Assembly: GCF_000022265.1 (NCBI RefSeq)
Contig: NC_011979.1
Span: forward strand, 4,140,001-4,172,000
From: Geotalea daltonii FRC-32
Lineage (GTDB): Bacteria; Desulfobacterota; Desulfuromonadia; Geobacterales; Geobacteraceae
Direction: 5' to 3'
Length of the DNA: 32,000 nucleotides
A model generated the notes under the pieces. It saw nothing but the letters and a program-made list of their open reading frames with translations. It made no database searches and was not told the origin of the DNA. Below are positions 2,166-32,000 of the stretch, piece by piece (position 1 is the first letter of the stretch; every line of letters begins with the position of its first letter). A program made the position numbers and the translations under genes.

Positions 2166-2177
2166 AAGATGCCTTTT

Positions 2178-2312: not shown

Positions 2313-2315
2313 GAT

Positions 2316-3320: not shown

Positions 3321-3330
3321 TTTGTTTCCT

Positions 3331-3388
3331 GTAGGGGCAACCCCCTGTGGTTGCCCGGATGATGGGCGGCTACGGGTAGCCGCCCTAC
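3331..3388. repeat. REP-like double-hairpin element (GTAGGGGC...GCCCTAC type), copy 1
   Basis: The sequence is gtaggggcaaccccctgtggttgccc...gggcggctacgggtagccgccctac. It has two internal GC-rich hairpins (GGGCAACC/GGTTGCCC and GGGCGGCTAC/GTAGCCGCCC) bracketed by GTAGGG/CCCTAC. It occupies almost the whole 72-bp flxC-flxB spacer. Confidence 0.7.
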
Positions 3389-3392
3389 GAAA

Positions 3393-4340: not shown

Positions 4341-4370
4341 GTATAACCTTCAGTACGAGTCTTTCCAGCT

Positions 4371-4871
4371 TTAGATGCTACCATAGGCCTCTTGCAGCTC
4401 CGGTGTGTCCAGTGCCCCTGACCAGTGTTCCTCTGTCTCCAGTTCCTTGAATTCGGTCATCGGCCCCAGCACTCTGATTCGCTCGGTCAGTTCCGTTACC
4501 ACCTCCACCCATTTCCCCCCCTCGGCAGCCGATACCCAGGAAAACTGGAGACGATTGAGATCGACACCGACAAACTCCAGCAGTTGACGAAAGGCGGCAA
4601 AGCGGCGGCGGGCATGAAAATTCCCCGCCATGTAATGGCAGTCGCCAGGATGGCAGCCGGAGACCAGCACCCCATCAGCACCGCGCTGGAAGGCACGAAG
4701 GATAAAAACCGGATCGATGCGCCCCGTGCAGGGGAATTTCAGCACCCGGACGTTGGCCGGATACTGCATGCGGCTTGTCCCCGCCAGGTCCGCCCCGGCG
4801 TAGGTGCACCAGGTGCAGACGAAGGCGACGATTTTTGGTTCGAGCTCATGATGTTGTTTTTCTGGATGCAT
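4371..4871 (-). CDS. flxD: Methyl-viologen-reducing hydrogenase delta subunit (MvhD) family protein (FlxD-like)
   Basis: 166-aa ORF with the MvhD Cys pattern (VCTWCTY, FPCTGR, VSGCHPGDCHY), immediately downstream of hdrA in the operon. Its first ~32 codons are part of the 303-bp tandem repeat. Confidence 0.9.
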   Translation of the reverse strand: MHPEKQHHELEPKIVAFVCTWCTYAGADLAGTSRMQYPANVRVLKFPCTGRIDPVFILRAFQRGADGVLVSGCHPGDCHYMAGNFHARRRFAAFRQLLEFVGVDLNRLQFSWVSAAEGGKWVEVVTELTERIRVLGPMTEFKELETEEHWSGALDTPELQEAYGSI

Positions 4872-4884
4872 GATTAAAACCTTT

Positions 4885-5011
4885 CACCACGAAGACACGA
4901 AGGACACGAAGAAATCAAAAACTTTTTAGGTGTAAAGCCAAGCCATAGGATCTATCCGGCTTTTTGTTCCGTCTTTCGCCTTCCTTCGTGCTCTTCGTGC
5001 CCTTCGTGGTG
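4885..5011. repeat. Palindromic CACGAAG-arm element, copy 2
   Basis: The arms are caccacgaagacacgaaggacacgaag ... cttcgtgctcttcgtgcccttcgtggtg. They are about 28 nt long, nearly complementary, and each is built from about three 8-9-nt CACGAAG units. Confidence 0.8.
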
Positions 5012-5036
5012 GATTTGTTATCTTACAACGCCTCTA

Positions 5037-5174
5037 TCATGGCAATGATCTGTTCATCGGTATAGCCGTCCAATTCCATGTCCCCGCCAGGTCCGCCCCG
5101 GCGTAGGTGCACCAGGTGCAGACAAAGGCGACGATTTTTGGTTCGAGCTCGTGATGTTGTTTTTCTGGATGCAT
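5037..5174 (-). pseudogene. Chimeric 45-codon ORF: mvhD codons 1-32 fused out of frame to a duplicated hdrA 3' end
   Basis: My hand translation of the minus strand gives MHPEKQHHELEPKIVAFVCTWCTYAGADLAGTWNWTAIPMNRSLP*. ATG is at 5174-5172 and TGA at 5039-5037. It is below the ORF-track length cutoff. It is a product of the tandem duplication. Confidence 0.55.
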
Positions 5175-5187
5175 GATTAAAACCTTT

Positions 5188-5313
5188 CACCACGAAGACA
5201 CGAAGGACACGAAGAAATCAAAAACTTTTTAGGTGTAAAGCCAAGCCATAGGATCTATCCGGCTTTTTGTTCCGTCTTTCGCCTTCCTTCGTGCTCTTCG
5301 TGCCTTCGTGGTG
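5188..5313. repeat. Palindromic CACGAAG-arm element, copy 3
   Basis: Near-identical to copy 2 and located within the second 303-bp unit. Confidence 0.8.
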
Positions 5314-5339
5314 GATTTGTTTTTCCTACAACGCCTCTA

Positions 5340-5477
5340 TCATGGCAATGATCTGTTCATCGGTATAGCCGTCCAATTCCATGTCCCCGCCAGGTCCGCC
5401 CCGGCGTAGGTGCACCAGGTGCAGACAAAGGCGACGATTTTTGGTTCGAGCTCGTGATGTTGTTTTTCTGGATGCAT
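5340..5477 (-). pseudogene. Chimeric 45-codon ORF (second copy): mvhD 5' fragment fused to a duplicated hdrA 3' end
   Basis: Same predicted peptide as 5037-5174. ATG is at 5477-5475 and TGA at 5342-5340. It lies directly downstream of the real hdrA stop and element copy 4. Confidence 0.55.
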
Positions 5478-5490
5478 GATTAAAACCTTT

Positions 5491-5601
5491 CACCACGAAG
5501 ACACGAAGGACACGAAGAAATCAAAAACTTTTAGCTCAGGATCTATCCGGCTTTTTGTTCCGTCTTTCGCCTTCCTTCGTGCTCTTCGTGCCTTCGTGGT
5601 G
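5491..5601. repeat. Palindromic CACGAAG-arm element, copy 4 (central deletion)
   Basis: The arms match copies 2 and 3. The central loop is 16 bp shorter (aaaaacttttagctcaggatc versus aaaaactttttaggtgtaaagccaagccataggatc). Confidence 0.8.
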
Positions 5602-5613
5602 GATTTGTTTTTC

Positions 5614-7611
5614 CTACAACGCCTCTATCATGGCAATGATCTGTTCATCGGTATAGCCGTCCAATTCCACACTCTTGGACGGACAGGTGGCCTGGCAGGT
5701 GCCGCAGCCGCCGCAGACGCCGGGATTAACATAGGCGACGACCCTTATCAGGTTCCCCTGGCGGTCCCTGATTTCCTTCTCTTCGATGGCGCCATAGGGG
5801 CAGACTTTCTTACAGTAAAAACAGCCGACACAATTTTTCTCGTTGACCCGGGCCACGATCGGCTCCCGCTCCAGCTGATCCTTGGCGAAAAGGGTCATCA
5901 CCTTGGCCGCTGCTGCCGAAGCCTGACTCACCGTATCGGGTATATCCTTCGGCCCCTGGCAGGCTCCGGCCAGATAGATGCCGGCCGTGGCGCACTCCAC
6001 CGGTCTGAGTTTCGCGTGGGCTTCGGAGTAGAAATTGTATTTGTCGTAGGAAATACCAAGCTTCTGGGCCAGGCTGTCAGCGCCGGGCTGGGCCTGGACT
6101 GCCGTCGCCAATACCACCAGGTCGGCCTCGATTTCCACCTGTACCCCGACCAGGGTATCGCTCCCCATAACCACCACCTTGTCCCCCTTCTGGTAGAGCC
6201 GGGAAACCATGCCGCGTATATAGACCGCCTCCTCTTCCTCCACCGCCCGCCGCCAAAACTCATCATAGCTCTTGCCGGGGGTGCGGGCATCCATATAGAA
6301 GACGTAAGCCTGGCCGTCGTGAACCTTGTGGTGGTAAAGCATGGTATGCTTGGCAGTGTACATGCAGCAGATCTTGGAGCAGTAGGAAATGCCCTTTTCC
6401 CTGGCCCTGCTGCCAACGCACTGGATGAAAACCACCTGCTTAGGTTCCTTGCCGTCTGAAGGACGGAGGATTTTTCCGCCCGTAGGGCCGGATGCACTGG
6501 CGAGGCGTTCGAAAGTCAAGCCGTCGATGACATCAGGGATGGTGCCGTAACCGAATTCGCCATAACCTTCGATGGGGCTTACTTCCGGCTTCCGATCAAT
6601 GGAGTAGAGGTCGAACCCGGTGGCAACAACGATGGCGCCGACCGGCTCCATTACAAGCTGGTCCTGCTGTTCGAAATCTATGGCCTGGGGTCCGCATACC
6701 TTGGCACAGAGGCCGCATTTACCGGCTCTGAACTTGAGGCAGTTTTCCCGGTCGATTACCGGCGTATTGGGTACCGCCTGGGGAAAGGGGACATAAATGG
6801 CAGAGCGCAGGCCCAGATCCTGGTCGAATTTGTTGGGGATTTTCTTCTGCGGGCATTTGGCCATGCAGATACCGCAGCCGGTGCACGTATCCTCATCAAC
6901 AGAGCGGGCCTTTTTGCGGATGGTGACGGAGAAGTTGCCGATATAGCCATCGATGCTTTCGATCTCCGACCAGGTGTAGAGCTTTATGTTGGGATGATTG
7001 GCGGCATCGACCATCTTCGGCGTCATGATGCATTGGGAACAGTCAAGGGTGGGAAAGGTCTCGGAAAGCTGGGCCATATGGCCACCGATTGAAGGCTCGC
7101 GCTCGACGAGCACCACCTGGTGTCCGGCGTCGGCGATGTCCAGGGCAGCCTGGATGCCGGCAATACCGCCGCCGATGACCAGCGAACGCTTGGTGACCGG
7201 GACGGTGATCGGTTCCAATGATTTTCCCCGCTTCACCCGCTCCACCATCAGCCGGACCATATCGCTCGCCTTGGCCGTCGCTTCTTCCCGGTCCTCATGA
7301 ACCCATGAGCAGTGCTCGCGGATGTTGGCCATGTCGCACATGAACGGGTTGAGGCCAGCTGCCTGGGCCGCCTTGCGGAAGGTCTTCTCATGCATGCGCG
7401 GACTGCAAGCCGCGACGACGATACCGGTGAGTTTGTGCTCGGCCACGGCCTTTTTCAGCAAGTTCTGCCCAGGATCGGAGCACATGTACTTATATTCGGT
7501 GGCGTAGGCAACGCCGGGCAGCCTGCCTGCAGAAGCTGCAACCCGCTCCACGTCTACAGTTCGGGAGATGTTCTCTCCACAGTGACAAATGAATACGCCG
7601 ATTCTTGACAT
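5614..7611 (-). CDS. hdrA: Heterodisulfide reductase subunit A (HdrA), FAD- and FeS-containing
   Basis: 665 aa. It has the N-terminal CHCGENI motif, the dinucleotide fold VIGGGIAGIQAALDIA, and four ferredoxin-type motifs (CTGCGICMAKCP, CGLCAKVCGP, CVGCFYCKKVCP, CGGCGTCQATCP). GAGGA lies 8 nt before ATG 7611. Confidence 0.95.
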   Translation of the reverse strand: MSRIGVFICHCGENISRTVDVERVAASAGRLPGVAYATEYKYMCSDPGQNLLKKAVAEHKLTGIVVAACSPRMHEKTFRKAAQAAGLNPFMCDMANIREHCSWVHEDREEATAKASDMVRLMVERVKRGKSLEPITVPVTKRSLVIGGGIAGIQAALDIADAGHQVVLVEREPSIGGHMAQLSETFPTLDCSQCIMTPKMVDAANHPNIKLYTWSEIESIDGYIGNFSVTIRKKARSVDEDTCTGCGICMAKCPQKKIPNKFDQDLGLRSAIYVPFPQAVPNTPVIDRENCLKFRAGKCGLCAKVCGPQAIDFEQQDQLVMEPVGAIVVATGFDLYSIDRKPEVSPIEGYGEFGYGTIPDVIDGLTFERLASASGPTGGKILRPSDGKEPKQVVFIQCVGSRAREKGISYCSKICCMYTAKHTMLYHHKVHDGQAYVFYMDARTPGKSYDEFWRRAVEEEEAVYIRGMVSRLYQKGDKVVVMGSDTLVGVQVEIEADLVVLATAVQAQPGADSLAQKLGISYDKYNFYSEAHAKLRPVECATAGIYLAGACQGPKDIPDTVSQASAAAAKVMTLFAKDQLEREPIVARVNEKNCVGCFYCKKVCPYGAIEEKEIRDRQGNLIRVVAYVNPGVCGGCGTCQATCPSKSVELDGYTDEQIIAMIEAL

Positions 7612-7624
7612 TTATACGTTCCTC

Positions 7625-7698
7625 GTAGGGGCGACCCTGTGTGGTCGCCCTGCCCATGCGGTCGACCGTTCAGGGCAGGCACACGGGCCTGCCCCTAC
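7625..7698. repeat. REP-like double-hairpin element (GTAGGGGC...GCCCCTAC type), copy 2
   Basis: The sequence is gtaggggcgaccctgtgtggtcgccc ... gggcaggcacacgggcctgcccctac, with hairpins GGGCGACC/GGTCGCCC and GGGCAGGC/GCCTGCCC. It fills the hdrB-hdrA spacer, and the hdrB stop codon (7695-7697) lies inside its last arm. Confidence 0.7.
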
Positions 7699-8585
7699 AG
7701 TAATTTCTTTTCCTTCAACAGGGGCAACGGGCTGACCATCATGCTTTCCAGTCCCAGGCGGCTGGAGGATAATCCGACCGCCAGCCCCACCATCTGGGTG
7801 ATATAAAAGACAGGCATGCCATACTGGACCTTATACCCTTCCTCGATCTCCTGCTGACGGATGTCCAGGTTACCGTGGCAGAGCGGGCAGGCGACCATGA
7901 CGCAGTCGGCGCCTGCAGCCTTGGCCGAGGCAAGTATGGCATTTGAAAGCTGCAGGACAACGCCGGGGCGCGACAGGGTGAAGTTGGCGCCGCAGCATTC
8001 GAGACGGTGCGACCAGGAAACAGGTTCGGCTCCAAGAGCAGCCAGGACGTTTTCCATAATGCTCGGGGCTTCACAGTCATCCAGCTCCGGCACCTCAGGA
8101 GGACGGGTCAGCAGACAACCGTAGTAGCAAGCGACCTTGAGGCCGTTCAATGGTTTGGTTACCGCCTGTTCAAGTTTATCCAGGCCAAAATCCCTGGCCA
8201 GGATCTCCAGCAGGTGTTTGACCTTCTTCTCCATTGGCGCCGGGGCGGCAATAGCCTTCTCCACCTGTTTGCGCTGGATATCGTTGTGCCTCAGATGATG
8301 CTGGGTAGTCTTGAGCCGCGAAAAACAGGCGGCACAGGCCACGGCCAAATCCCCCTTTACCTCTTCGGCCAGAGAAAGATTCTTGGCACACAGGGAGAGG
8401 GAGAGCAGTTCATCCACGTTGTGGGCCGGAGTCGCACCGCAGCAGAACCAGTCTGGCACTTCCTCCAGTCCGATTTTTAGCGCCTTGCAGACACCGCGGG
8501 TGGAGATATCATATTCCTTGGCCGAGGCATGGAGGGAACAGCCGGGATAATAGGCGTAACTGAGGATCTTTTTACCGGGGGTCAC
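7695..8585 (-). CDS. hdrB: Heterodisulfide reductase subunit B (HdrB), two CCG domains
   Basis: 296 aa with two CCG motifs (DWFCCGATP and LECCGANF). The GTG start overlaps the hdrC stop in the sequence GTGA, which indicates translational coupling. Confidence 0.93.
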   Translation of the reverse strand: MTPGKKILSYAYYPGCSLHASAKEYDISTRGVCKALKIGLEEVPDWFCCGATPAHNVDELLSLSLCAKNLSLAEEVKGDLAVACAACFSRLKTTQHHLRHNDIQRKQVEKAIAAPAPMEKKVKHLLEILARDFGLDKLEQAVTKPLNGLKVACYYGCLLTRPPEVPELDDCEAPSIMENVLAALGAEPVSWSHRLECCGANFTLSRPGVVLQLSNAILASAKAAGADCVMVACPLCHGNLDIRQQEIEEGYKVQYGMPVFYITQMVGLAVGLSSSRLGLESMMVSPLPLLKEKKLL

Positions 8586-9166
8586 GGCGCCTCCCCTTTG
8601 TTCCGCATGGTTTCAATGCGGCTGAAGATGTTTTCTATTTCAGAGATGTTCCTGTTTTTCGAATGGAACATTTTCAGCTTGCCCCGGGAAAGGAGCTTGG
8701 GGCCGAGCAGCAGGTCCTTCATGAACTGACCGCTCTTGACATTGAAGACGGCGCCAAGGCGCATTTCGTACTGGCGGCCATAGGTACGGATGTTATCAAT
8801 GAAGAGCCGGTTGGCCAGCTGAACGAAACTTTCCTTCGAGGGCCCGTCAGCATCCCACGAAAGCTTGCGCAGGGCATCCATGATGGCTGCCAGATTGACT
8901 TTGTTGGGACAGCGGGTGGCACAGGTCTCACAGGATGCGCAGTACCAGATGGAACGCCCGGCCAGTATCCGCTCCCACTGGCCCAGCTGAAGCAGGCGAA
9001 CCACCCGGTTAGGGGGATGTTCCATGAAGCTGGCCATGGGGCATCCGGCCGAGCATTTACCGCACTGGAAACAACGGCGGACCGAGGTGCCGGAGAGGGC
9101 CTCGACTTTATCGACGAAACCGATGTTCATGGTTTCGTTGGACAGGAGCATTTTTTTGCGTTTCAC
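8582..9166 (-). CDS. hdrC: Heterodisulfide reductase subunit C (HdrC)
   Basis: 194 aa with two 4Fe-4S motifs (CFQCGKCSAGCP and CASCETCATRCP). The GTG start at 9166 is preceded by AGAGGTGGAG. It is the first gene of the cluster. Confidence 0.9.
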   Translation of the reverse strand: MKRKKMLLSNETMNIGFVDKVEALSGTSVRRCFQCGKCSAGCPMASFMEHPPNRVVRLLQLGQWERILAGRSIWYCASCETCATRCPNKVNLAAIMDALRKLSWDADGPSKESFVQLANRLFIDNIRTYGRQYEMRLGAVFNVKSGQFMKDLLLGPKLLSRGKLKMFHSKNRNISEIENIFSRIETMRNKGEAP

Positions 9167-16522: not shown

Positions 16523-18433
16523 ATGAAACATCTCATTCTCGGCACTGCAGGACACATCGACCATGGCAAGACCTCGCTGGTCAAGGCTTTGACCGGCATC
16601 GACACTGACCGGCTCAAGGAAGAAAAGGCGCGTGGCATTACCATCGAGTTGGGCTTTGCCCATCTGGAACTGCCGGAAGGGATACAGTTCGGCATCGTCG
16701 ACGTTCCCGGCCATGAAAAGTTCGTCAGGGCCATGGTGGCCGGAGTCGGCGGCATGGACCTGGTGATGCTGGTCATTGCCGCCGATGAGGGGATTATGCC
16801 CCAGACCAGGGAACACCTGGAAATTTGCCAGCTCCTGGGGGTGAAGAAGGGGCTGGTGGCCCTGACCAAGACTGATATGGTGGACAGCGAATGGCTTGGT
16901 CTGGTGACGGAAGAGGTGCGGGAATACCTGTCCGGCAGCTTCCTGGAAGATGCGCCCATAGTCCCGGTTTCCTCGCGCACCGGTGCAGGACTTGATGAGC
17001 TGAAGGGGGAGCTGGCACGGCTGGCACTGGAGGTGGAGGAGAAGCGGCACGATGGCCCCTTTCGCCTGCCGGTAGACCGGGTCTTCACCGTGACCGGCTT
17101 TGGAACGGTTGTCACCGGAACGCTCCTTTCCGGTGAGATCCAGGTTGGGGATGAGGTTGAATTGCTGCCGGCCAGTCGCGAATGCAGAGTCCGCGGCATC
17201 CAGGCCCATGGCGCAAAAACCGACCGTGGTCTGGCCGGGCAAAGGCTAGCCGTAAACTTGCAGGGGGTTGATCACGACCAGGTTTTGCGGGGCGATGTGG
17301 TGGTGCCCAAGAACCTGTACCGGCCGACCCGGGTCGTGGACGTACGCCTCAACTACCTGAGTTCGGCACCGAGGGAGCTGAAGCATCGTGCCACCCTGCG
17401 TCTCCATTCGGCCACCTATGAGGTGCCGGCACAGGTCATTCTTCTGGATCGGGACACGCTCAAGCCGGGAGATACCGCCTGTGCACAGCTGCGTCTTGCC
17501 AATCCGGTACTGCTTCTTCCCGGTGACCCATTCGTCCTGCGAACCTATTCACCCCAGGCTACCCTTGGGGGTGGCAGCATCCTCGATCCGGATCCACCTC
17601 GCCGTCGCCGGCGTTCCGAAGAGGCCATTGCACTCCTTGAGGCCATTGAAGCGGGCAACGAGGCGGATAAGGTCAGGATGATGGTCGCCGCCAGTCTCCT
17701 GTCAGGCCTCCCTCTCAATGAAATCATCAACCGTACCGGCATGTCGGTAAAAAGAATCGATGCAGCTCTGGCAATCCTTCTTACCTCTGGAGACGTGCTG
17801 CAGGTGGTACGCGAACCCAGGATTTTTCTCGGCAAAGCTGCCTTCGAAGGGCTGAAGGCGAAGTTGATGGAGGAACTGCAGACCTATCTCCGCGACAATC
17901 CCATGAAAGACGGCATCAACAAGGAAGAACTCAAGTCTCGCATACCCAGGCGCAGTGACCCCCGTTTTTTCGGCCCGATCCTGGCTGCCCTTGAGAAGGA
18001 AGGAAAGGCGGTCTCGGAGCGGGATATTATCAGGCTGCCGGGACGCAAGGGGGAGGCAAGCATCGATCAGGCCGGCATCCAGGAAAAGATTGCGGCTGCC
18101 CTGCAGAAGGGTGCAATGGAGCCTCCCACCATAAAAGAATTATGCAATGACTGCAAATGCTCAGAGAAACAGGTACTTGAGCTTCTAAATCTCCTGGTGC
18201 GAGATCACAAAGCGGTGAAGATCAAAGGTGATGTTTTTTACGCACCTGATCCCATTGTGACAATACGGGAAAAGCTGACTGCATATCTCAAGGAAAAGGG
18301 GGAAATCGCCCCGCCTGAGTTCAGGGAACTTACCGGCCTTTCTCGGAAATTCATGATCCCTCTTCTGGAGTATTTTGATCAGGAAAAGCTGACCATCCGT
18401 GTTGGAGATAAGCGTGTCCTGCGCAAAGGTTAG
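16523..18433 (+). CDS. selB: Selenocysteine-specific translation elongation factor SelB
   Basis: 636 aa. GTPase motifs [14 protein letters not shown] and TKTD sit in an EF-Tu-like N-terminal half. The long C-terminal extension is typical of the SECIS-binding winged-helix domains. AAGAGGA lies upstream of the ATG. Confidence 0.93.
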
Positions 18434-24875: not shown

Positions 24876-25571
24876 ATGGCCAACTGTTCCAACTGCTCTG
24901 CACCACTGCTGTCAGGTTCGATCAAATGCGAATACTGCGGTAGCCGCAACGATATCGATCTCAAAGGCATCAATTACTACACGACCAACGAGCCCGATTC
25001 GGAACGGATCTGTCCGCGATGCAACATAAGGCTCAAGACCATTGACCTGAAGGTCGAAGGGAAATTCCTCGTCGAAAGATGTGATGAGTGCCTGGGGCTG
25101 TTCTTTGATCCGGGGGAACTGGAAGCGCTTCTCCAGGCAACGGTGACCAATGTCTTTGCCATCGACCGAAGCAGGCTGAATGCCATCAATGCAACCAGAA
25201 GAGCCGAAAACTACGCCATCACCTACCTCAAGTGCCCCATCTGCAGCACAATGATGAACCGGGTCAACTTCGGCGCCAAGAGCGGAGTCGTCGTCGATAT
25301 CTGCAAAGACCACGGCGTCTGGCTCGACGGCGGGGAGCTGCGGCATCTGGCCGAATGGATGAAGGCCGGCGGCAAACTGCTCGACCAGGAGCGTCAGGAA
25401 GAGCGGAAAAGGCAAGAGGCTGAAGCCCAGCTGGAACTGCTGAAGCAACGTTCCAAATCGTCGACCGGCGGAGAATTCAGCGAGTATGGCGGCTTCAGAA
25501 ACTATGATGGCAATGATACTGATGATCTTTTCGAGCTGCTGAAAAAAGCTGTTATCTTCTTTACCAGGTAG
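24876..25571 (+). CDS. Zinc-ribbon protein with N-terminal CxxC ribbon plus two zf-TFIIB-type domains
   Basis: CSNCSAPL...CEYCGS is followed by CPRCN...ERCDECLGLFFDPGELE and CPICS...DICKDHGVWLDGGELRHL. These have the CPxC...C..C.G.W.D.GEL pattern of PF13453-type domains. The C-terminus is a charged coiled coil. The gene starts 14 nt after the SPFH gene. Confidence 0.85.
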   Translation: MANCSNCSAPLLSGSIKCEYCGSRNDIDLKGINYYTTNEPDSERICPRCNIRLKTIDLKVEGKFLVERCDECLGLFFDPGELEALLQATVTNVFAIDRSRLNAINATRRAENYAITYLKCPICSTMMNRVNFGAKSGVVVDICKDHGVWLDGGELRHLAEWMKAGGKLLDQERQEERKRQEAEAQLELLKQRSKSSTGGEFSEYGGFRNYDGNDTDDLFELLKKAVIFFTR

Positions 25572-25575
25572 ACAA

Positions 25576-25809
25576 ATGGCACCTGATAAAACCACCCCGA
25601 TAACGCCCGGCCGGTACCGGCACTACAAGGGCAACTATTATGAAGTGATCGGCATCGCCAGGGACAGTGAGACCGAGGAGCCTTTCGTTGTCTACCGTTG
25701 CCTCTACGGCGATTATTCCCTCTGGGTAAGGCCCCTATCCCGGTTCGCCGATACCGTCACCATTGAGGGGCAAGATGTGCCGCGTTTTCGACGCTCTCAC
25801 CCTTTTTAA
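25576..25809 (+). CDS. DUF1653 domain protein
   Basis: 77 aa with GRYRHYKGNYYEVIGIARDSETEEPFVVYRCLYGDYSLWVRPLSRF, which matches the DUF1653 consensus as I recall it. The gene starts 4 nt after the upstream stop. Confidence 0.85.
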   Translation: MAPDKTTPITPGRYRHYKGNYYEVIGIARDSETEEPFVVYRCLYGDYSLWVRPLSRFADTVTIEGQDVPRFRRSHPF

Positions 25810-25837
25810 TTATCCTCCTATTGGATGCTCGTCATCA

Positions 25838-28800
25838 TCAATATTTACCCCCTGGTGTGTAACTACCCATACTGTTGCTGCAGGGGCTGCCTCCGCCTGA
25901 CGTCGTGCACGTCGCACTTCCCGATGTCAATTCGTTAACTGCCGTCAATGGCCGGTGATTTGTCAGGGAAAGCGGCGTTACCGTGTTTCTTATGAATGCA
26001 TACGGTCTGCTGGTCTCGGTTGTACCTCGGGGCCACTTGGAATCAGTTCCCGTGCCGGCCAGCCTATTGAAGCCGTGAACGTTCTCGCCACGTGTCGGAC
26101 GACTGGCGGTAATGCTGCTGGAGTGGCAATAGTTGCACCCATAACGCAGATAGGTGACCATGCTGCTGTGCGTACTTGATGCAAGTGCAGAACCGGTGCC
26201 GTGATGTTGAGAGGTGCTCGTGTTATATCCGGCATGGCAGATTTTACAGAGTGTCGTTTCGTTGGTGCTGGCCGCAGGGGTCCCTGTGACTGTTGCCGTG
26301 CCTCGAAGGGTGGCTTGTGCGCCGTGGGCCGTTACGGTACTGGTCTGAACCCCGGATGCACCAACAGGTGCATGGCAATCCCAGCAGGAAATCAGTGGCC
26401 CCCAGCTCGTTATGTCAACGCTACTACCCCTGGTCGCACCGTTCCATGGATTGACCATTCTGGTGGTTTTGGCATACCAGTTATTCTGTTTGCCCATAAC
26501 AGGGTGATAGGATGAGTTGCTTGTGGCAAACGCCGCTGCAATATTGGTGACACCGCCGGTTACCCCGTTAGCGGTTATCCCGGCCCCTGTATATCCTGCT
26601 TCCGCAATGGTAGTGGCAAAGGGCTTTTCTGCAGTCCCACCGGGTACCTGTGCTGTGGTACTTACGGCACCGTTCCCATCATGGCACTTGAGGCAGAAGT
26701 TGATCTGAATAGCGGCCACATCAGCCTCGACGTTCGGGCTACCCAGATCCCGACTGAATCGGGGCGGTTTTGCATCAACAGTGGTGCTCGTATAGGAACC
26801 GGGAGTCCCGCTGAAGGTTACACCTTTGATGGTAGAACCGGTATCCGGATCGCGAAGCTCTATCAGTCCGTTTTGGTGATATGAAGTAGGTTTCCCTGTG
26901 GACATCTCCCCTTCCATGTGGCAGACGATACAGTCGTACTGGGTGACTGCACCACCTGCGGAGCGCTTGTGAGACCAGGTGTTGTTGAATTCAAGGGAAA
27001 CTGCCCTTCGTGAACCATTATTGGCCAGAGGACCCTGTTTTATATCCACAGTTTTACTATGACAAGAGACACAGCTCGGTCCTTCGATGCTGCCGTTCAG
27101 GTGCAGTTGGAAATTCAATATGGTCCCGGTCGCAGAAACGTTGTTGTGACAGCCGCTGCAGGAGGTTGTTGGCACCTGACCACGATGGGCCGACGAAGAT
27201 ATGCCGTAAAGCGGAGGATTGCCGTGGCAGACACCGCAATTGCTTCCCGATCTGGCTGCGGTCCAGGTTACGGTTGCCGTACGCGCTGCTCCGCCACGGC
27301 CGTCCTGGTGGCACTGGTTGGTGGAGCAGGTGCCCCCCGATGAGTAGGGATAGCCCTTGCTGTCTGTTGTATTGGTAGAACCAAAGGTATAGTTGACAAC
27401 AGCAAGGATATCGGCCTTGCCGTCCTCCTCATTATGCAGGTTTGCAGGATGGCAGTTTTTGCAGGCAAAGCCGTAGGCAGTGGCAGTTGTTTTATTGCTG
27501 CCGGTCAGGTTATTAAAGACGGTCCCCTGGTTGTAATGCAGAGCATGTCCTGCCGTTGTACTCACAGAAAGCTGGCCGTTATTGCTGCCGCCATGGCAAC
27601 CATCGCAAATCTTGGGCTCTCCTTTATAGGCAAAGCCGTTATAGGTTGTATCGGAGCTATGGAGATGACACTGGGTGCATACCGTGCCTGAGTTATGGCT
27701 GTCTGAGCTGGTGGCAGTATAGTGTACCATCTTGTTGGGATCTGCATTTTTATAGGTATGGCAAACGTTACAGATACCATTGAAAGGAGCCGCCGTCTTA
27801 GCCCAGTTTGAGGCAGCAGCCTTTGCTACAAAGGAAACATTATTAGTGGTAAAGCTGGACGGCACTCCAGTTGTTCCATCAGAGGTCATTGACGGCTTCA
27901 GGTGTACCATGGCAATGGGTCCTGCATTGGTGCTGGTCCGGTCTCCGTGTGAGTCATGGCAATCCCAGCAGAACTGGCCGCCATTGAGTGATGTGGAATG
28001 CTTGCTGCCGAAGTGATATTTATCCACCTTGCGCTGAGTCGCTGTCTTGGCGGTATATCCGGGCCCTGGCGTTACCCCGGTTGCGCCGACGGAGGCATGA
28101 CAGACAAGACAGACACCATTCCTGCCCCAAGTTGCATGATCGAAATTGCGCAAACGCATCGGATTATTGGTGTCCCCATGGCTGACACTGCTGTATTCAT
28201 GGCAGTACAGACATGGATCGCCTGCCCCACCAGCCGTGGCTGCAGCCGAGGAGAATCCGGCAAAGGCCGCTCCGGTAACGTCATAGGAGCCGGATTGCCT
28301 GCCGTGGCCCGACCAGCTCCATTCAGCCCGGGCAATCTTTGCCATGGTGCTGTTTTTGAAAGCGTAATTGACGGTATCGGCAGTGGCAAAGTGACAATCA
28401 CCGCACTTGTTGGTGCCGCCCCAGGTGAATACCGTTGAAGCATTGCCGCCATGGCAATTGACATTACTACAGCTGGTTTTGGTCGTCGGAGGGTTTGCAG
28501 ACGTGGGGGTAAAGGTATTTGGCAAGCCGATAAATGTTTTCGTGCCGTTGGCAACGACATTGTAATTCTTGTTTACATGGTTTCTCACGCTGGAAATGGT
28601 ATTGCCGCCACTGCCAACCGTGCCGTTGTGGCACCAGTCGCAGGTAAAGCCCCAGAAGACCGCATGCTTGGGATGGCTGTTGGCCTTGCCCTTGTAACCG
28701 TTCTGGTAATCAGGCCCTGTCGGATAGGCCGTATGACAGCTGCCGCAATGAACGTTCGCCTGTACCGTATCCCATTTGATCCAGGGAGTTGAGTAATCGG

Positions 28801-31800
28801 TGAAAGAAAAGGCCCGACTGTGGCAGTAACCGTTTTTACACTGATTATTTCCGGCATCCCAACGGAAAGCTGCAGAGCCGACCGTACTGCTGGCGGAAAT
28901 ATTGCGAAAACCATTGGGATGCTTGGCACGACTGCCGGAAAGAAGCGCAGTATTGCTGGTTGTCGTAGACGCATGACAGGCGGCACAGGTTACCAGGGTG
29001 TTGTTTGTGGAGGTATTGTTGCTGCCGATGGTCCCACCATTGCCATAGGTGTTGGCATGCTTGTTGTGGGGTTTTGACCAGGTGGTGTGCTGAGAGTTCG
29101 GATCATCGGCTGCCTTGTTATGGCAATCCCCACAGGCGGCGGCTCTGCCGGTCCAGCGCAGCACACTGGTCATTGGGGACTGGATCAGATCCAGAGTATT
29201 CGCATAGTTACGTTTGCCCAGGCCGCCGCGTCCGTCCGAGTGGCAGTAGGTGTCGCAGGAAGTGCCGGTTGAATACCCATATCCGCGTCCGTCATAGATC
29301 AAGCCTGTGCCGCGGTAGACCACCTCCGGCCTGCCTGCCCCTGAAGGAATATTGTTGAACGGTGGGCGCATGATGACTTCAGCAACAGAACCATTTGTCA
29401 CGCCGGCAGGAGGCCCATTGAGATGGCTTTCGGTCGGACTGCCGGGATGGCAGACGCCACACATGAAGACGTTGGTGCTGCTGGAAAGATTGACATTGGT
29501 CCATCCTTGTTCGGTTGTACTGGACGGGCGGGTAGAGCGGTTGTAATGCTTACGGTGGGCGGGTGAAAGTGTGGCTGTCGATGTAGTGGTGTTATTGGCC
29601 TCATGGCAGTTGCCGCAGGTGTTAATCGTAGAGGTGTCCCAGTCCCGACTTTGGGTGGTGGAATTGTTGCCGTGGCAGTAAGTATTGGAGCAGACGTGGG
29701 TAGAAGCAAAGCTGCCCGAGAAATTGGCCATCTTGATGAAGTTAATGTCAATCGCACGGTTGATGTGCTTGACGTCGGTGCCGTTGAAGACAGACCGGCC
29801 ATTGGCAGCGACTGTATTCACGTGGCACCAGTTGCAGGTAACCGGCTTGTGTGGCAAGGGCCCGGCACTTATGTGGTTCAGGTGCCGCCCCGAGCTCATC
29901 TGTCTTTGAACGCCAGCCAGGCCGTTGTGACAGTAATTGCACTCGATGGTCCCCTGCTGACCGGCAGCGATGTTGTTCCAGGTCGTAGGAGGCGCCTTGT
30001 AGACACCTGCCCCGTTGGAGTGACAGTAGATCTGGGTACAGCCGTTGGCGGCATAGGCCAACCCGCCGGTCGATTTAGGCCCCCATGCCACGTTGTTCAC
30101 CCTGTTTGCGTGAAGCGAAAAAGCGGTGACATTATCAAAGGCATTTACCGTCGAGGCATGGCACTCGTTGCACTTGAAGTTGAAACCGCTAAAACTGCTG
30201 CTGGTATTGTTCACATGTGCAGTATGACCTTTGGTGGCAATCGGATCGGCTGAGGCTGCATTGTAACCATGACAACCGGCGCACCCCCCCGACAGCGAGC
30301 CTCCCCAGGTAACCGGTTTATTGAAATGGCAGTAGACATTGGTGCACTGTTGGGCACTACTGTCCCAGCGAATTGCCCCGGCGATGCTGTTGCCGGTAAC
30401 GTTGCGGAAGCCATTGGGATGCCTGTCGCGTCTGTTGGCAATAAGAGTAGTATTGTCGGCTGCGGTCGCTGCATGGCAGGCGTTACAGGTGGCATTGGCA
30501 CTGCGGGAGCCGGAAAGGTGCTTAGAGTGGGAACCGGACCAGGTGGGGTTGGCATCACCATACTGGTTGTGACAGTTGCCGCAGACGACCCCGGTTGAGG
30601 TTGTCCACTCCAGTCTTGGCGCCGATGTGCTGTTGCGTTTCCCCGGGTTGCCACGCCCATCGGAGTGGCAGTAGGTATCACAGGTGGTCCCGGTGGAATA
30701 ACCATAGCCGCGGCCATCGTAATTTACGCCGGTGCCACGCGTCACTGTCTCCGGTCTCGTTGCCCCCACAGGAGGTGTAAACGGCAGGCGCAAGGCGACC
30801 TCGGCCACCGAGCCATTGGTAACGCCTGCCGGCGGCCCGCTCAGATGGCTGGTGGTCGGGCTGCCAGGGTGACATACCCCGCACATGAAGACGTTGGTTG
30901 AAACTGAGCGATTTACATTGGCCCAGCCATCCTCCGTGGTATTTGCCGGCCGGCTGCTCGTATTGTAATGCTTGCGGTGGGCCGCTGAAAGGGTGGCTGA
31001 GGTCGTGGTCGTGTTGTTGGCCTCATGGCAGTTACCGCAGGTATTGAGGGTTACCGTATCCCAGTCGCGGGTGGAGGTGGTGGCATTGTTGGTATGGCAG
31101 TAAGTGTTGGAACAGACATGAGTGGAAGTACTGTAGCTACCGGAGAAGTTTGCCATTTTTATGAACGACACATCGATGGTGCGGTTGATGTGCTTGACAT
31201 CTGTACCGTTGTATACCGATTGACCGTTAGATGCCACCGTATTCGAGTGGCACCAATTACATGAGACGGGTCGATGCGGCAGGGGGCCGCCATTGATATG
31301 GTTCAGGTGCCGCCCGGAGCTCATCTGATTCTGGATTCCTGCCAAACCGTTATGGCAGTAATTGCACTCGATTACCCCCTGCTGGTTGTCACCGATGGTC
31401 TTCCATGTCTGGGGAGGGGCTTTATACCTTCCCTTGCCGTTGGAATGGCAGTACACCGTACATGTCTTGGCAGGGTCGTAGGAAAGGACACTGGTCCCCC
31501 CGGTTGGCACATACGCGGCATCGGGGCCCCAGTTCACATCGGCTGCGCCATTGACATGAAGGGAAGTAGAAATCAGCCCGGTGTCGGAGGAATTCACCGT
31601 CGAATTATGACATTCCTGACAACGGAAATTGAACCCGCCAAAACGGACACTGGTGTTGTCGACGTGGGCTTTGTGACCATTGCTGGTAATGGTTGAAACC
31701 GCATCCGCATTGTTACCATGGCAATTTACACAGCCGGTTGAGTAACTGCTGTCACCCCAAGTCGGGTTCTGTCGAGGTGGTTTTCCTTTTCCGTCGCTGT

Positions 31801-32000
31801 GACAGTAAAGATTGGAACATTCTCCATAGGCCGCGCTTGGCGCCATATCACCAGTGGAACCTGCAGCTGCCGGAGTCAAGGAACCGGCCGCCTGGTACCC
31901 GGCTGATGATCCTACCAGAGGGTCCGTCGTTTTCATTGCCCAGCGCACATTCCCCTGGACATGGGAAACATCAATAGCCGGATGACAGAGATCACAGGAG
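25838..32000 (-). CDS. Giant multihaem c-type cytochrome (more than 2050 aa, N-terminus outside the window), at least 46 haem-attachment motifs
   Basis: The 2036-aa track ORF holds 34 CXXCH plus 11 CX3CH/CX4CH motifs by my manual count. The listed GTG at 31948 is not the start. The frame stays open to nt 32000 and encodes a further CDLCH (SCDLCHPAIDVSHVQGN-VRWAMK). The stop is at 25838. The composition is extremely Thr/Ser/Asn/Gly-rich with many HxxH pairs. Confidence 0.95.
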   Translation of the reverse strand, partial: SCDLCHPAIDVSHVQGNVRWAMKTTDPLVGSSAGYQAAGSLTPAAAGSTGDMAPSAAYGECSNLYCHSDGKGKPPRQNPTWGDSSYSTGCVNCHGNNADAVSTITSNGHKAHVDNTSVRFGGFNFRCQECHNSTVNSSDTGLISTSLHVNGAADVNWGPDAAYVPTGGTSVLSYDPAKTCTVYCHSNGKGRYKAPPQTWKTIGDNQQGVIECNYCHNGLAGIQNQMSSGRHLNHINGGPLPHRPVSCNWCHSNTVASNGQSVYNGTDVKHINRTIDVSFIKMANFSGSYSTSTHVCSNTYCHTNNATTSTRDWDTVTLNTCGNCHEANNTTTTSATLSAAHRKHYNTSSRPANTTEDGWANVNRSVSTNVFMCGVCHPGSPTTSHLSGPPAGVTNGSVAEVALRLPFTPPVGATRPETVTRGTGVNYDGRGYGYSTGTTCDTYCHSDGRGNPGKRNSTSAPRLEWTTSTGVVCGNCHNQYGDANPTWSGSHSKHLSGSRSANATCNACHAATAADNTTLIANRRDRHPNGFRNVTGNSIAGAIRWDSSAQQCTNVYCHFNKPVTWGGSLSGGCAGCHGYNAASADPIATKGHTAHVNNTSSSFSGFNFKCNECHASTVNAFDNVTAFSLHANRVNNVAWGPKSTGGLAYAANGCTQIYCHSNGAGVYKAPPTTWNNIAAGQQGTIECNYCHNGLAGVQRQMSSGRHLNHISAGPLPHKPVTCNWCHVNTVAANGRSVFNGTDVKHINRAIDINFIKMANFSGSFASTHVCSNTYCHGNNSTTQSRDWDTSTINTCGNCHEANNTTTSTATLSPAHRKHYNRSTRPSSTTEQGWTNVNLSSSTNVFMCGVCHPGSPTESHLNGPPAGVTNGSVAEVIMRPPFNNIPSGAGRPEVVYRGTGLIYDGRGYGYSTGTSCDTYCHSDGRGGLGKRNYANTLDLIQSPMTSVLRWTGRAAACGDCHNKAADDPNSQHTTWSKPHNKHANTYGNGGTIGSNNTSTNNTLVTCAACHASTTTSNTALLSGSRAKHPNGFRNISASSTVGSAAFRWDAGNNQCKNGYCHSRAFSFTDYSTPWIKWDTVQANVHCGSCHTAYPTGPDYQNGYKGKANSHPKHAVFWGFTCDWCHNGTVGSGGNTISSVRNHVNKNYNVVANGTKTFIGLPNTFTPTSANPPTTKTSCSNVNCHGGNASTVFTWGGTNKCGDCHFATADTVNYAFKNSTMAKIARAEWSWSGHGRQSGSYDVTGAAFAGFSSAAATAGGAGDPCLYCHEYSSVSHGDTNNPMRLRNFDHATWGRNGVCLVCHASVGATGVTPGPGYTAKTATQRKVDKYHFGSKHSTSLNGGQFCWDCHDSHGDRTSTNAGPIAMVHLKPSMTSDGTTGVPSSFTTNNVSFVAKAAASNWAKTAAPFNGICNVCHTYKNADPNKMVHYTATSSDSHNSGTVCTQCHLHSSDTTYNGFAYKGEPKICDGCHGGSNNGQLSVSTTAGHALHYNQGTVFNNLTGSNKTTATAYGFACKNCHPANLHNEEDGKADILAVVNYTFGSTNTTDSKGYPYSSGGTCSTNQCHQDGRGGAARTATVTWTAARSGSNCGVCHGNPPLYGISSSAHRGQVPTTSCSGCHNNVSATGTILNFQLHLNGSIEGPSCVSCHSKTVDIKQGPLANNGSRRAVSLEFNNTWSHKRSAGGAVTQYDCIVCHMEGEMSTGKPTSYHQNGLIELRDPDTGSTIKGVTFSGTPGSYTSTTVDAKPPRFSRDLGSPNVEADVAAIQINFCLKCHDGNGAVSTTAQVPGGTAEKPFATTIAEAGYTGAGITANGVTGGVTNIAAAFATSNSSYHPVMGKQNNWYAKTTRMVNPWNGATRGSSVDITSWGPLISCWDCHAPVGASGVQTSTVTAHGAQATLRGTATVTGTPAASTNETTLCKICHAGYNTSTSQHHGTGSALASSTHSSMVTYLRYGCNYCHSSSITASRPTRGENVHGFNRLAGTGTDSKWPRGTTETSRPYAFIRNTVTPLSLTNHRPLTAVNELTSGSATCTTSGGGSPCSNSMGSYTPGGKY
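28841..31819 (-). repeat. Diverged tandem duplication of a ~475-500-aa, 12-haem module inside the cytochrome gene
   Basis: Module A (aa 44-534 of the track ORF; 30347-31819) and module B (aa 535-1036; 28841-30346) carry the same ordered 12 motifs. Module A has CSNLYCH, CVNCH, CQECH, CTVYCH, CNYCH, CNWCH, CSNTYCH, CGNCH, CGVCH, CDTYCH, CGNCH, CNACH. Module B has CTNVYCH, CAGCH, CNECH, CTQIYCH, CNYCH, CNWCH, CSNTYCH, CGNCH, CGVCH, CDTYCH, CGDCH, CAACH. The CNYCH Cys codons at 31364-31366 and 29939-29941 are 1425 nt apart. Confidence 0.85.

What the first reader, a model, noticed from the sequence alone, without database searches (positions are those of the whole stretch)
25838..32000. Giant multihaem cytochrome with at least 46 haem-binding motifs, still incomplete at the window edge
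One uninterrupted minus-strand frame of more than 6.1 kb encodes 35 CXXCH motifs (including CDLCH upstream of the track's nominal start) and 11 CX3CH/CX4CH motifs. That is about one site per 45 residues. Proteins with this many c-type haems are rare. In Geobacter-type organisms they are candidates for long-range or extracellular electron transfer or for charge storage. The N-terminus, and therefore the signal peptide or lipobox, lies outside the window, as do the upstream neighbours. Localisation and partners are therefore unknown. I cannot tell from the sequence alone whether this exact protein has been characterised.
Basis: partly seen in the sequence, partly recalled or inferred. Interest (0 to 1): 0.8.

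Follow-up and report, generated by a model that had tools for sequence, protein, structure and literature searches.

The report
Known 53-haem Geotalea daltonii cytochrome gene
The open frame is real, but it is the already annotated 53-haem cytochrome gene of Geotalea daltonii FRC-32, a member of a known family of giant "haem wire" proteins whose function is still untested; its tail domain was replaced by recombination relative to a sister species.

Summary
The minus-strand frame is open from the stop at 25838-25840 to the window edge. It covers 2053 codons with 35 CXXCH, 3 CX3CH and 8 CX4CH motifs.

The window is 100% identical to Geotalea daltonii FRC-32. The full gene encodes 2427 aa and is already in GenBank as ACM22077.1, "cytochrome c, 53 heme-binding sites". 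It matches the curated family TIGR01904 (CxxxxCH/CxxCH) in ten stretches.

The missing N-terminus carries a cleavable-type signal peptide. The gene is the last of a three-gene, cytochrome-only operon (44 + 35 + 53 = 132 haems). A sigma-54-type element lies upstream and is conserved in three orthologous operons.

The gene is under purifying selection: dN/dS is 0.085, all 159 motif residues are conserved, and 65 of 68 other His are conserved. Relatives carry up to 94 motifs, so 53 is not exceptional.

- The body is a run of about 12 triads (CXXCH, CX3-4CH, CXXCH), including a roughly 480-aa tandem duplication.
- The last roughly 400-830 residues are a recombination mosaic. The sister species G. 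toluenoxydans is 97% identical in DNA until window position ~28300, then about 75%, then about 50%.

The C-terminal six-haem domain always lies at the C-terminus of otherwise variable relatives. Function, most likely a periplasmic or extracellular electron conduit or store, remains inferred.

The parts
25838..32000 (-). The 3' 6.16 kb (codons 375-2427 plus stop) of the gene for the 2427-aa '53 haem-binding sites' cytochrome c of Geotalea daltonii FRC-32 (ACM22077.1). The remaining 374 codons, including the signal peptide, lie beyond base 32000.
   Evidence: Open frame and 46 motifs. Full gene recovered on identical contigs. Exact match to the NCBI protein. TIGR01904 and PF09698 hits.
28382..31705 (-). 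Nine of the twelve tandem three-haem units (residues 473-1580). Each is about 105-145 aa with the pattern HxxH ... CXXCH ... H ... CX3-4CH ... W ... CXXCH.
   Evidence: Motif map. Unit extraction and alignment A2, with the motif Cys/His and one Trp invariant. In module alignment A1, 12 invariant non-motif His accompany 12 motifs.
30326..31822 (-). Copy A of an internal tandem duplication of about 480 aa (residues 434-932, four three-haem units).
   Evidence: Self-comparison gives an offset of 475-491 aa and 72-81% identity in the core. Core copies are 76% identical.
28820..30349 (-). Copy B of the internal tandem duplication (residues 925-1434).
   Evidence: Orthologues carry 1, 2 or 3 such copies.
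27062..28351 (-). Middle region (residues ~1591-2020), with mostly plain CXXCH motifs. This is the first recombinant block relative to G. toluenoxydans.
   Evidence: DNA identity to G. toluenoxydans falls from about 97% to 71-78% at window ~28300. dS is 1.24 here against 0.09 upstream.
25841..27154 (-). C-terminal six-haem domain (residues 1990-2427), ending in the motif YTPGGxY. It has no CX4CH motif and no specific curated model. Its last ~1.2 kb (25841-27061) is a swapped cassette, only 32-46% identical in protein to the sister species.
   Evidence: Identity profiles. Alignment A3 with six invariant CXXCH. The domain is always at the extreme C-terminus of relatives. Pfam gives only a borderline PF22113 hit, 32.3 against a cutoff of 30.

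Best explanation
The region is the larger part of an intact, selectively maintained gene for a 2427-aa Sec-exported c-type cytochrome with 53 haem-attachment motifs. The holo-protein would be about 281 kDa. It is the protein already annotated in Geotalea daltonii FRC-32 and belongs to the CxxxxCH/CxxCH (TIGR01904) family.

Shown:
- It is the last gene of a three-gene operon made only of such cytochromes (44, 35 and 53 motifs, 132 in all).
- A conserved sigma-54-type -24/-12 element lies upstream of the operon.
- The protein is modular. It has a signal peptide with an AXA-type cleavage site before a conserved DL(M/L)HNS start. An N-terminal region follows. Then come about 12 tandem three-haem units, including a 480-aa tandem duplication, then a middle region, and then a conserved C-terminal six-haem domain.
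- There are enough conserved non-motif His for bis-His ligation of essentially every haem.
- The C-terminal third has been replaced by recombination relative to the sister species.

Inferred:
- After export and haem attachment, the closely spaced low-spin haems form a continuous electron path tens of nanometres long. That is longer than the periplasm is wide. The protein would therefore act, alone or with its two operon partners, as a conduit and/or store for respiratory electrons beyond the inner membrane, most likely at or outside the cell surface.
- The N-terminal units set the length of the wire. The exchangeable C-terminal domain would be the end that contacts a partner or acceptor.
For: Identity: 0 mismatches to contigs that carry the full gene. 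100% match to ACM22077.1 / WP_012648803.1, 'cytochrome c, 53 heme-binding sites'. My count is 41 CXXCH + 3 CX3CH + 9 CX4CH = 53.

Family: TIGR01904 at 252.6 bits in 10 stretches. PF09698, PF14522 and PF22113 also hit.

Operon: c44, c35 and c53 lie on one strand. c44 and c35 overlap by 14 nt as called, and c35 and c53 are 11 nt apart. The same three-gene cassette occurs in L008, L009 and L010.

Promoter: TGGCAT-N5-CTGCT lies 196-206 nt upstream of the first start codon in three orthologous operons. The chance expectation is 0.02 per 25 kb.

Selection: against the L009 orthologue dN/dS is 0.085, 159 of 159 motif residues and 65 of 68 other His are conserved.

Export: residues 29-52 are the only strongly hydrophobic segment. 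Orthologues keep small residues at -3 and -1 before (V/A/I)DL(M/L)HNS.

Ligands: 12 invariant non-motif His accompany 12 motifs in a four-unit module.

Modularity.

Mosaic.

C-terminal domain family: 276 cluster representatives at E<=1e-30. In every one of the 150 listed proteins the best stretch ends within one residue of the protein's C-terminus, apart from one partial match (P0236). The listed proteins are 359 to 3717 aa long.

Literature: related long Geobacter cytochromes are predicted to be extracellular linear haem wires about 350 Angstrom long for 27 haems (PMC11492766). Large G. sulfurreducens cytochromes (27-35 haems) are expressed on electrodes and predicted to be extracellular, with unknown function (bioRxiv 10.1101/2022.05.22.492868; PMC10599522).
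Against: There is no expression, localisation or haem-occupancy data for this protein. No paper in the library mentions its accessions.

Both structure predictions were poor (pLDDT 44.8 and 53.3). The fold search found nothing. The wire geometry is therefore borrowed from published models of relatives.

There is no lipobox and no adjacent porin or secretion gene. Passage across the outer membrane is unexplained, so a purely periplasmic location cannot be excluded.

I recovered no accessory genes beside this operon. In most other genomes a beta-propeller protein and a ResB/CcsA pair follow genes with this C-terminal domain; they are absent here.

Deleting one large G. sulfurreducens cytochrome (omcN, 34 haems) gave no reduction phenotype, according to bioRxiv 10.1101/2022.05.22.492868.
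Confidence: 0.75

Rival explanations
1. Periplasmic electron store (capacitor) rather than an extracellular wire. The three proteins stay in the periplasm and hold up to 132 electrons per set, buffering respiration when no external acceptor is in reach.
For: The signal peptide has a signal-peptidase-I type site, there is no lipobox and no further membrane segment. No porin or secretion gene lies next to the operon in any of five loci. Charge storage is one of the two roles the literature proposes for very haem-rich cytochromes (PMC11492766; PMC2825233 conclusions).
Against: Published models of relatives are longer than the periplasm is wide and are predicted to be extracellular (PMC11492766). 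A C-terminal domain that is swapped between close relatives is easier to explain for an exposed, interacting end than for a passive store. Neither point is direct evidence.
Confidence: 0.2
2. The conserved C-terminal six-haem domain is a catalytic or terminal-reductase module. The N-terminal haem units only feed it electrons, as the accessory haems do in octahaem and MtrC-type reductases.
For: The domain is conserved as a unit at the C-terminus of proteins with 8 to 71 motifs. It has many invariant charged and polar residues beside the haem ligands (E55, D74, E81, R101, R135, D259, R352, R389 in A3). Only five invariant non-motif His accompany six motifs inside the aligned block. It gives a borderline match to the MtrC/MtrF haem domain PF22113.
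Against: The sixth distal His may lie just upstream in the poorly aligned start of A3 (the LHxNG motif). I did not test this. There is no match to any solved enzyme by sequence or by fold (on a poor model). A protein identity of 32-46% between sister species is unusual for a conserved active site.
Confidence: 0.1
3. The long frame is a pseudogene, a silent relic, or several ordinary cytochrome genes joined by an assembly error.
For: None found.
Against: Three independent data sets give the same sequence. The frame is intact in four species or lineages. dN/dS is 0.085 with all 159 motif residues kept. The start codon follows a strong ribosome-binding site (AAGGGGAAGG, 4 nt before the ATG).
Confidence: 0.02

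Closest known systems
CxxxxCH/CxxCH-domain c-type cytochromes (NCBIfam TIGR01904, Pfam PF09698), first defined in Geobacter sulfurreducens
   Same: Direct member: ten matches to the domain model. The motif pairing is the same, a CX3-4CH followed 21-41 residues later by CXXCH. The taxonomic range is the same (Geobacteraceae and relatives)..
   Different: It is larger than the G. sulfurreducens examples discussed in the literature (27-35 haems). It also carries a distinct C-terminal six-haem domain without the CX4CH motif. Larger members exist in metagenomes, up to 94 motifs in 3889 aa.
GSU1996, the dodecahaem 'nanowire' cytochrome of G. sulfurreducens built from four c7-type three-haem domains (PDB 3OV0)
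   Same: One polypeptide built from tandem three-haem units. The ligand and motif order HxxH...CXXCH...H...C(X)nCH...CXXCH resembles cytochrome c7. The Pfam Cytochrome_C7 model matches at 101.6 bits.
   Different: Homology is not demonstrated. The middle haem uses CX3-4CH. The units are about 110-145 aa, against about 70-80 aa for c7 domains (from memory). From my own knowledge, GSU1996 has one His-Met haem in each c7-type domain. Here 12 invariant non-motif His accompany the 12 motifs of a four-unit module, consistent with bis-His ligation throughout.
Polymerising cytochrome nanowires OmcS, OmcE and OmcZ
   Same: The proposed job is the same: a continuous chain of stacked haems carrying electrons over tens of nanometres or more outside the cell.
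   Different: Those wires reach their length by polymerising small subunits (4-8 haems), with a His shared between subunits. Here length comes from repeats within one chain. There is no sequence similarity to any solved structure.
MtrC/OmcA/MtrF outer-surface decahaem cytochromes and porin-cytochrome complexes
   Same: Weak matches to the MtrC/MtrF haem-domain model PF22113 (91.7 bits over the whole in-window protein; 32.3 bits for the C-terminal domain). A role at the cell surface is conceivable.
   Different: No lipobox, no beta-barrel domains detected, no adjacent porin or periplasmic decahaem partner. The fold search gave no match.
Other very haem-rich Desulfuromonadia cytochromes (69 motifs in Desulfuromonas soudanensis, 53 in D. 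versatilis), as cited in PMC11492766
   Same: Same order of haem number, same class of organisms, and function equally unknown.
   Different: I did not compare the sequences. Whether they belong to the same family or carry the same C-terminal domain is untested.

Membership tests
TIGR01904 / PF09698 CxxxxCH/CxxCH-domain cytochromes | Score above the curated cutoff of the family model | tested here: met
   TIGR01904.2: 252.6 bits against a cutoff of 27, E=1.1e-76, 10 stretches. PF09698: 103.7 bits against 21.7, 9 stretches.
TIGR01904 / PF09698 CxxxxCH/CxxCH-domain cytochromes | Paired motif: CX4CH (or CX3CH) followed at short distance by CXXCH | tested here: met
   All 12 CX3-4CH motifs of the full protein are followed by a CXXCH 21-41 residues downstream.
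c-type cytochrome (covalent haem, matured outside the cytoplasm) | N-terminal export signal | tested here: met
   The single hydrophobic segment is at residues 29-52, preceded by basic residues. Small residues at -3 and -1 precede a conserved (V/A/I)DL(M/L)HNS in eight orthologues. This was read from the sequence; no dedicated predictor was available.
c-type cytochrome (covalent haem, matured outside the cytoplasm) | Haem actually attached to the motifs | not testable with these tools
   Needs haem staining or mass spectrometry. Indirect support: 159 of 159 motif residues are conserved at 78% overall identity.
Cytochrome c7-type domain polymers (GSU1996-like) | Units homologous to the three-haem c7 fold | tested here: inconclusive
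   PF14522 matches at 101.6 bits and the ligand order resembles c7. However, 3OV0 is hit only at E=0.11, hhalign against PpcA gives 4.6%, and the AlphaFold model is unusable.
MtrC/OmcA-type outer-surface decahaem cytochromes | Lipoprotein signal (lipobox) for surface anchoring | tested here: not met
   There is no [LVI][ASTVI][GAS]C motif at the end of the signal segment. The only Cys there sits in WAIC.
MtrC/OmcA-type outer-surface decahaem cytochromes | Two pentahaem domains alternating with beta-barrel domains; match to PF22113 | tested here: inconclusive
   PF22113 is just above the cutoff for the C-terminal domain (32.3 against 30). No beta-barrel domain model matched. Foldseek found no match with a poor model.
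Porin-cytochrome trans-outer-membrane conduits (Mtr, Pcc, Ext) | [quoted passage not shown] | tested here: not met
   The called genes on the cytochromes' strand are only cytochromes. The flanks are a contractile-injection-system cluster and convergent DUF1653, Zn-ribbon and SPFH genes. The same holds in the orthologous loci, whose flanks differ in L007 and L008.
Polymerising cytochrome nanowire subunits (OmcS/OmcE/OmcZ) | Sequence relationship to a solved nanowire subunit | tested here: not met
   phmmer of the full protein against all PDB chains found no hit at E<=0.01.
Cytochromes with the conserved C-terminal six-haem domain (no curated model found) | Domain of about 430 aa with six invariant CXXCH, ending at the protein's last residue with YTPGGx[YF] | tested here: met
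   A3 shows invariant C28/C31/H32, C75/C78/H79, C154/C157/H158, C257/C260/H261, C303/C306/H307, C340/C343/H344, Y432 and G435. There are 276 representatives at E<=1e-30, with a C-terminal position throughout the listed hits.
Cytochromes with the conserved C-terminal six-haem domain (no curated model found) | Followed on the same strand by a PD40 beta-propeller gene and a ResB/CcsA cytochrome-synthase pair | tested here: not met
   Of 61 species loci, 43 carry ResB/Ccs-type neighbours and 39 carry a PD40 neighbour. The G. daltonii, G. toluenoxydans and L009 operons are instead followed by convergent unrelated genes.

The most novel reading that the evidence does not exclude
The protein is a length-adjustable haem wire carrying an exchangeable end piece. 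The tandem three-haem units set the reach, with copy number varying from 1 to 3 blocks among orthologues. The C-terminal six-haem domain is a specificity module that is swapped by recombination between lineages. The G. daltonii version is closer to homologues in a Desulfuromonadaceae genome (58%) and in Anaeromyxobacter and other Myxococcota (53-56%) than to its sister species' allele (43%). The domain would decide which partner, mineral surface or docking site the wire connects to. The three operon products might join end to end into a 132-haem conduit more than 100 nm long.
Probability: 0.15. Interest if true: 0.7.

Novelty: already known. Interest (0 to 1): 0.3.

Why it matters
As a finding it mostly re-discovers an annotated gene in a curated family, so it adds little by itself. 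The wider question is still open: what do cytochromes with dozens of haems in a single chain do, and how are they exported? The useful by-product is a natural experiment. G. daltonii and G. toluenoxydans are, from my own knowledge, both cultured isolates. They carry nearly identical operons (97% in DNA), and the two 53-haem proteins differ almost only in their C-terminal third. Comparing or swapping these alleles could show what the terminal domain does. The conserved sigma-54 element gives a handle on regulation.

Tried and rejected
- AlphaFold2 of the four-unit module (residues 420-935, 21-sequence alignment) gave mean pLDDT 44.8 and was unusable.
- AlphaFold2 of the C-terminal domain (17 sequences) gave pLDDT 53.3 and pTM 0.57, with only residues ~20-185 moderately confident. 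Foldseek against the PDB returned only chance matches at E>7.
- phmmer of the full protein against PDB sequences found nothing.
- A profile of the three-haem units against the PDB gave only motif-level hits. I therefore do not claim c7 homology.
- Sigma-70 promoter and intrinsic-terminator scans upstream of the operon and downstream of the gene found nothing above chance.
- No DNA-level tandem repeat was found in 25500-32000. The internal duplication is visible only at the protein level.
- Literature searches by accession and by guessed locus tags found no relevant paper. The supplements of PMC11492766 are not held.
- The context of a second G. daltonii family member (P0102) could not be retrieved. 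I therefore could not check whether the beta-propeller and ResB/CcsA accessory genes lie elsewhere in this genome.
- GC and GC3 along the gene show no clear compositional break at the recombination points.
- I rejected the ideas that the adjacent contractile-injection-system cluster is functionally linked and that the internal duplication is recent. The cluster is absent beside the L008 cassette. Both copies of the duplication have separate orthologues in L009.

Full report
**Observation.** On the minus strand, the frame that starts at base 31999 has no stop until 25838-25840, a run of 2053 codons. Its translation holds 35 CXXCH, 3 CX3CH and 8 CX4CH motifs. All 46 Cys-His dipeptides sit in such motifs, and 92 of the 94 Cys are used by them. 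Shuffling the same residues gives a mean of 0.64 motifs and a maximum of 5.

**Source and full length.** The neighbouring Zn-ribbon gene (24876-25571) led to two Logan contigs that match the window with 0 mismatches over 17125 and 7948 bases and extend past its edge. There the gene is 2427 codons long, starts at an ATG 4 nt after AAGGGGAAGG, and carries 41 CXXCH, 3 CX3CH and 9 CX4CH motifs, 53 in all.

The protein is 100% identical to ACM22077.1 / WP_012648803.1 / UniProt B9M756, annotated [quoted passage not shown]. The window is therefore a piece of a published genome, and the haem count is already in the public record. No paper in the searchable library mentions these accessions.

**Family.** NCBIfam TIGR01904 (CxxxxCH/CxxCH domain c-type cytochrome) matches at 252.6 bits in ten stretches. 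Pfam PF09698, PF14522 and PF22113 also match.

Among the 120 best relatives, 22 have more than 53 motifs. The largest have 94 motifs (3889 aa) and 93 motifs (3810 aa). The literature reports 69-haem proteins in Desulfuromonas and up to 116 motifs in peat metagenomes (PMC11492766; bioRxiv 10.64898/2026.05.27.727921). Within its family this protein is large but not exceptional.

**Context.** Downstream, the neighbours are convergent: DUF1653, a Zn-ribbon protein and an SPFH protein. Upstream, outside the window and on the same strand, are two more family members: 1453/1462 aa with 35 motifs (ACM22078.1) and 1785 aa with 44 motifs (ACM22079.1). They are separated by 11 nt and by a 14-nt overlap as called. 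The operon thus encodes 132 haem sites and nothing else.

Further upstream there is a 557-nt AT-rich spacer and then contractile-injection-system genes. The same three-gene cassette occurs in four other places:
- G. toluenoxydans (L010), syntenic.
- A metagenome relative (L009), syntenic downstream of the operon; the contig ends just upstream of it.
- A more distant Geobacteraceae genome (L008), with unrelated flanks.
- Geobacter sp. DSM 9736 (L007), which has five such genes in a row.

No porin, lipoprotein or isomerase gene accompanies any of them.

**Promoter.** Sigma-70 and terminator scans found nothing. An element TGGCAT-N5-CTGCT, with the GG-N10-GC spacing of sigma-54 promoters, lies 196-206 nt upstream of the first start codon in G. 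daltonii, L009 and L008. In L008 the surrounding spacer is not visibly similar to the other two. The pattern is expected 0.02 times per 25 kb by chance. I infer a sigma-54-dependent promoter; this has not been tested experimentally.

**Is the gene functional?** Against the L009 orthologue (78% identity) dN/dS is 0.085. All 159 motif residues and 65 of the 68 other His are conserved. Three independent data sets agree on the sequence. The pseudogene and assembly-error alternatives are therefore rejected.

**Export.** The only strongly hydrophobic segment in 2427 residues is at 29-52. In eight orthologues, variable signal regions end in small residues at -3 and -1, followed by the conserved (V/A/I)DL(M/L)HNS. 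The two operon partners have the same arrangement. There is no lipobox. This fits Sec export and signal-peptidase-I cleavage, giving a soluble holo-protein of about 281 kDa. Whether it crosses the outer membrane is unknown.

**Architecture.** From residue ~237 to ~1580, and once more near residue 1900, the motifs form triads of CXXCH, CX3-4CH and CXXCH. There are twelve triads, each preceded by HxxH and containing one more conserved His.

In an alignment of a four-triad block with 20 homologous blocks, 12 non-motif His are invariant alongside the 12 motifs. This fits bis-His ligation of every haem. The full protein has 68 non-motif His for 53 haems.

Residues 434-932 and 925-1434 are a tandem duplication, 76% identical in the core. 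Both copies have their own orthologues in L009, so the duplication is old. Other orthologues have one, two or three copies.

The ligand order resembles cytochrome c7, and Pfam's c7 model matches. A profile of the units hits the c7-polymer GSU1996 only at E=0.11, and hhalign against PpcA fails. I describe the resemblance but do not claim membership.

The middle operon protein is itself a chimera. Its first ~1200 residues resemble c53 (37% identity) and its last ~1030 resemble c44 (52%).

**Mosaic C-terminus.** Between G. daltonii and G. toluenoxydans the first two proteins are 97% identical, but c53 is only 87% identical. DNA identity changes in steps along the operon:
- About 97% for 14.7 kb.
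- 71-78% from window ~28300 down to ~26900.
- About 50% from ~26900 to the stop codon.
- 93% again in the downstream genes.

Synonymous divergence by residue range confirms this:

| Residues | dS |
|---|---|
| 1-1590 | 0.09 |
| 1591-2020 | 1.24 |
| 2021-2427 | 2.3 (saturated) |

Only recombination with diverged alleles explains such steps. The breakpoints fall at the end of the triad array and at the start of the C-terminal domain.

Three close lineages (daltonii, toluenoxydans, L009) carry three different C-terminal cassettes. In G. toluenoxydans a toxin-antitoxin pair is inserted just downstream. In a scan of one genome per species, the closest relatives of the G. daltonii cassette are in a Desulfuromonadaceae genome (58%) and in Anaeromyxobacter and other Myxococcota (53-56%). 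The sister species' allele is only 43% identical.

**The C-terminal domain.** Residues 1990-2427 hold six CXXCH motifs and no CX4CH motif. The domain has many invariant charged residues and ends in YTPGGxY. Pfam gives only a borderline MtrC/MtrF haem-domain hit, and NCBIfam reported nothing besides TIGR01904.

A profile search of 1.84 billion representatives found 276 proteins at E<=1e-30. In nearly every listed case the domain ends at the last residue, on proteins from about 400 to 3717 aa. In species genomes the carriers have 8 to 71 motifs. The picture is one conserved end piece carrying N-terminal haem arrays of very different length.

In 43 of 61 such loci the gene is followed by ResB/CcsA-type cytochrome-synthase genes. 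In 39 it is followed by a PD40 beta-propeller gene. Radical-SAM, LuxE-like and PMT/TPR glycosyltransferase genes often accompany them. Dedicated ResB/ResC pairs beside multihaem cytochrome genes were already noted for G. sulfurreducens and G. metallireducens (PMC2700814). The G. daltonii operon lacks these neighbours. I could not check the rest of the genome.

**Mechanism.** The following are shown: an intact, conserved, exported, modular multihaem protein in a cytochrome-only operon.

The rest is inferred. After haem attachment the chain would form a continuous electron path. Published models of a 27-haem relative span about 350 Angstrom and are predicted to be extracellular (PMC11492766). 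Scaling by haem number gives several tens of nanometres here, longer than the periplasm is wide.

The most likely role is a conduit and/or store for respiratory electrons beyond the inner membrane, with the exchangeable C-terminal domain as the interacting end. A purely periplasmic store and a catalytic C-terminal domain remain possible. Both of my structure predictions were too poor to help.

**Verdict.** The object is an already annotated member of a known, curated family whose members are uncharacterised. Interest is low to moderate. The mosaic C-terminus and the conserved sigma-54 element are the only points that go beyond the public annotation.

Noticed in passing
window 4776-5669: A 303-nt tandem repeat in 3.0 copies with 96% matches lies between the HdrA-like gene (5614-7611, minus strand) and the FlpD/MvhD-like gene (4371-4871, minus strand). 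Each copy repeats the last ~17 codons of the HdrA-like gene (ELDGYTDEQIIAMIEAL*) and the spacer that follows; the array runs into the 5' end of the MvhD-like gene.
   Followed up: partly
window 25170-25185 (minus strand): A second exact match to the sigma-54-like pattern TGGCATNNNNNCTGCT lies inside the Zn-ribbon gene 24876-25571, on the opposite strand to that gene. It is probably chance.
   Followed up: no
L006 1-9443 (upstream of the operon, outside the window) and L010 1-4185: Genes of an extracellular contractile injection system (CIS_TMP, AAA, eCIS_core) lie directly upstream of the cytochrome operon in both G. daltonii and G. toluenoxydans. Nothing suggests a functional link.
   Followed up: no
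L010 22030-23268 (G. toluenoxydans): A PhdYeFM/ParE toxin-antitoxin pair and two small ORFs are inserted between the 53-haem gene and the DUF1653 gene, right next to the recombined 3' end. They are absent in G. daltonii.
   Followed up: partly
L061 12720-17962; L018 11418-19466; L076 11315-19373 and about 40 other loci: In most other genomes, genes that end in this C-terminal domain are followed by a conserved accessory set: a PD40 beta-propeller, ResB-like and CcsA-like cytochrome synthases, a small unknown protein, a B12-binding radical-SAM protein, a LuxE-like acyl-protein synthetase and a PMT/TPR-type glycosyltransferase. This hints at dedicated haem attachment and possibly glycosylation or acylation. 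The set is absent beside the G. daltonii operon.
   Followed up: partly
L004 5601-9989 (35-haem gene, outside the window): The middle operon protein is a chimera. Residues 10-1225 align with the N-terminal 1300 residues of the 53-haem protein (37% identity). Residues 436-1462 align with the C-terminal 1030 residues of the 44-haem protein (52%).
   Followed up: partly
window 25841-32000 (protein composition): The protein is rich in Gly, Thr, Ser and Asn (42% together) and has 56 N-x-S/T sequons in 2427 residues. Together with the glycosyltransferase genes found beside relatives, this raises the untested possibility of glycosylation.
   Followed up: no
window 1320-9166 and 16523-18433: The window also holds a heterodisulfide-reductase/hydrogenase-like cluster (FAD/NAD-binding protein, FrhB-like, FlpD/MvhD, HdrA-like, CCG-domain and 4Fe-4S proteins) and a selB gene for the selenocysteine elongation factor. 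No in-frame UGA continuation was evident after the HdrA-like ORF.
   Followed up: partly
(genome-contig scan): The scan with the C-terminal domain did not return G. daltonii itself; the best hit was 58% identical. Either the genome is not the species representative in that collection or the stretch is masked.
   Followed up: no
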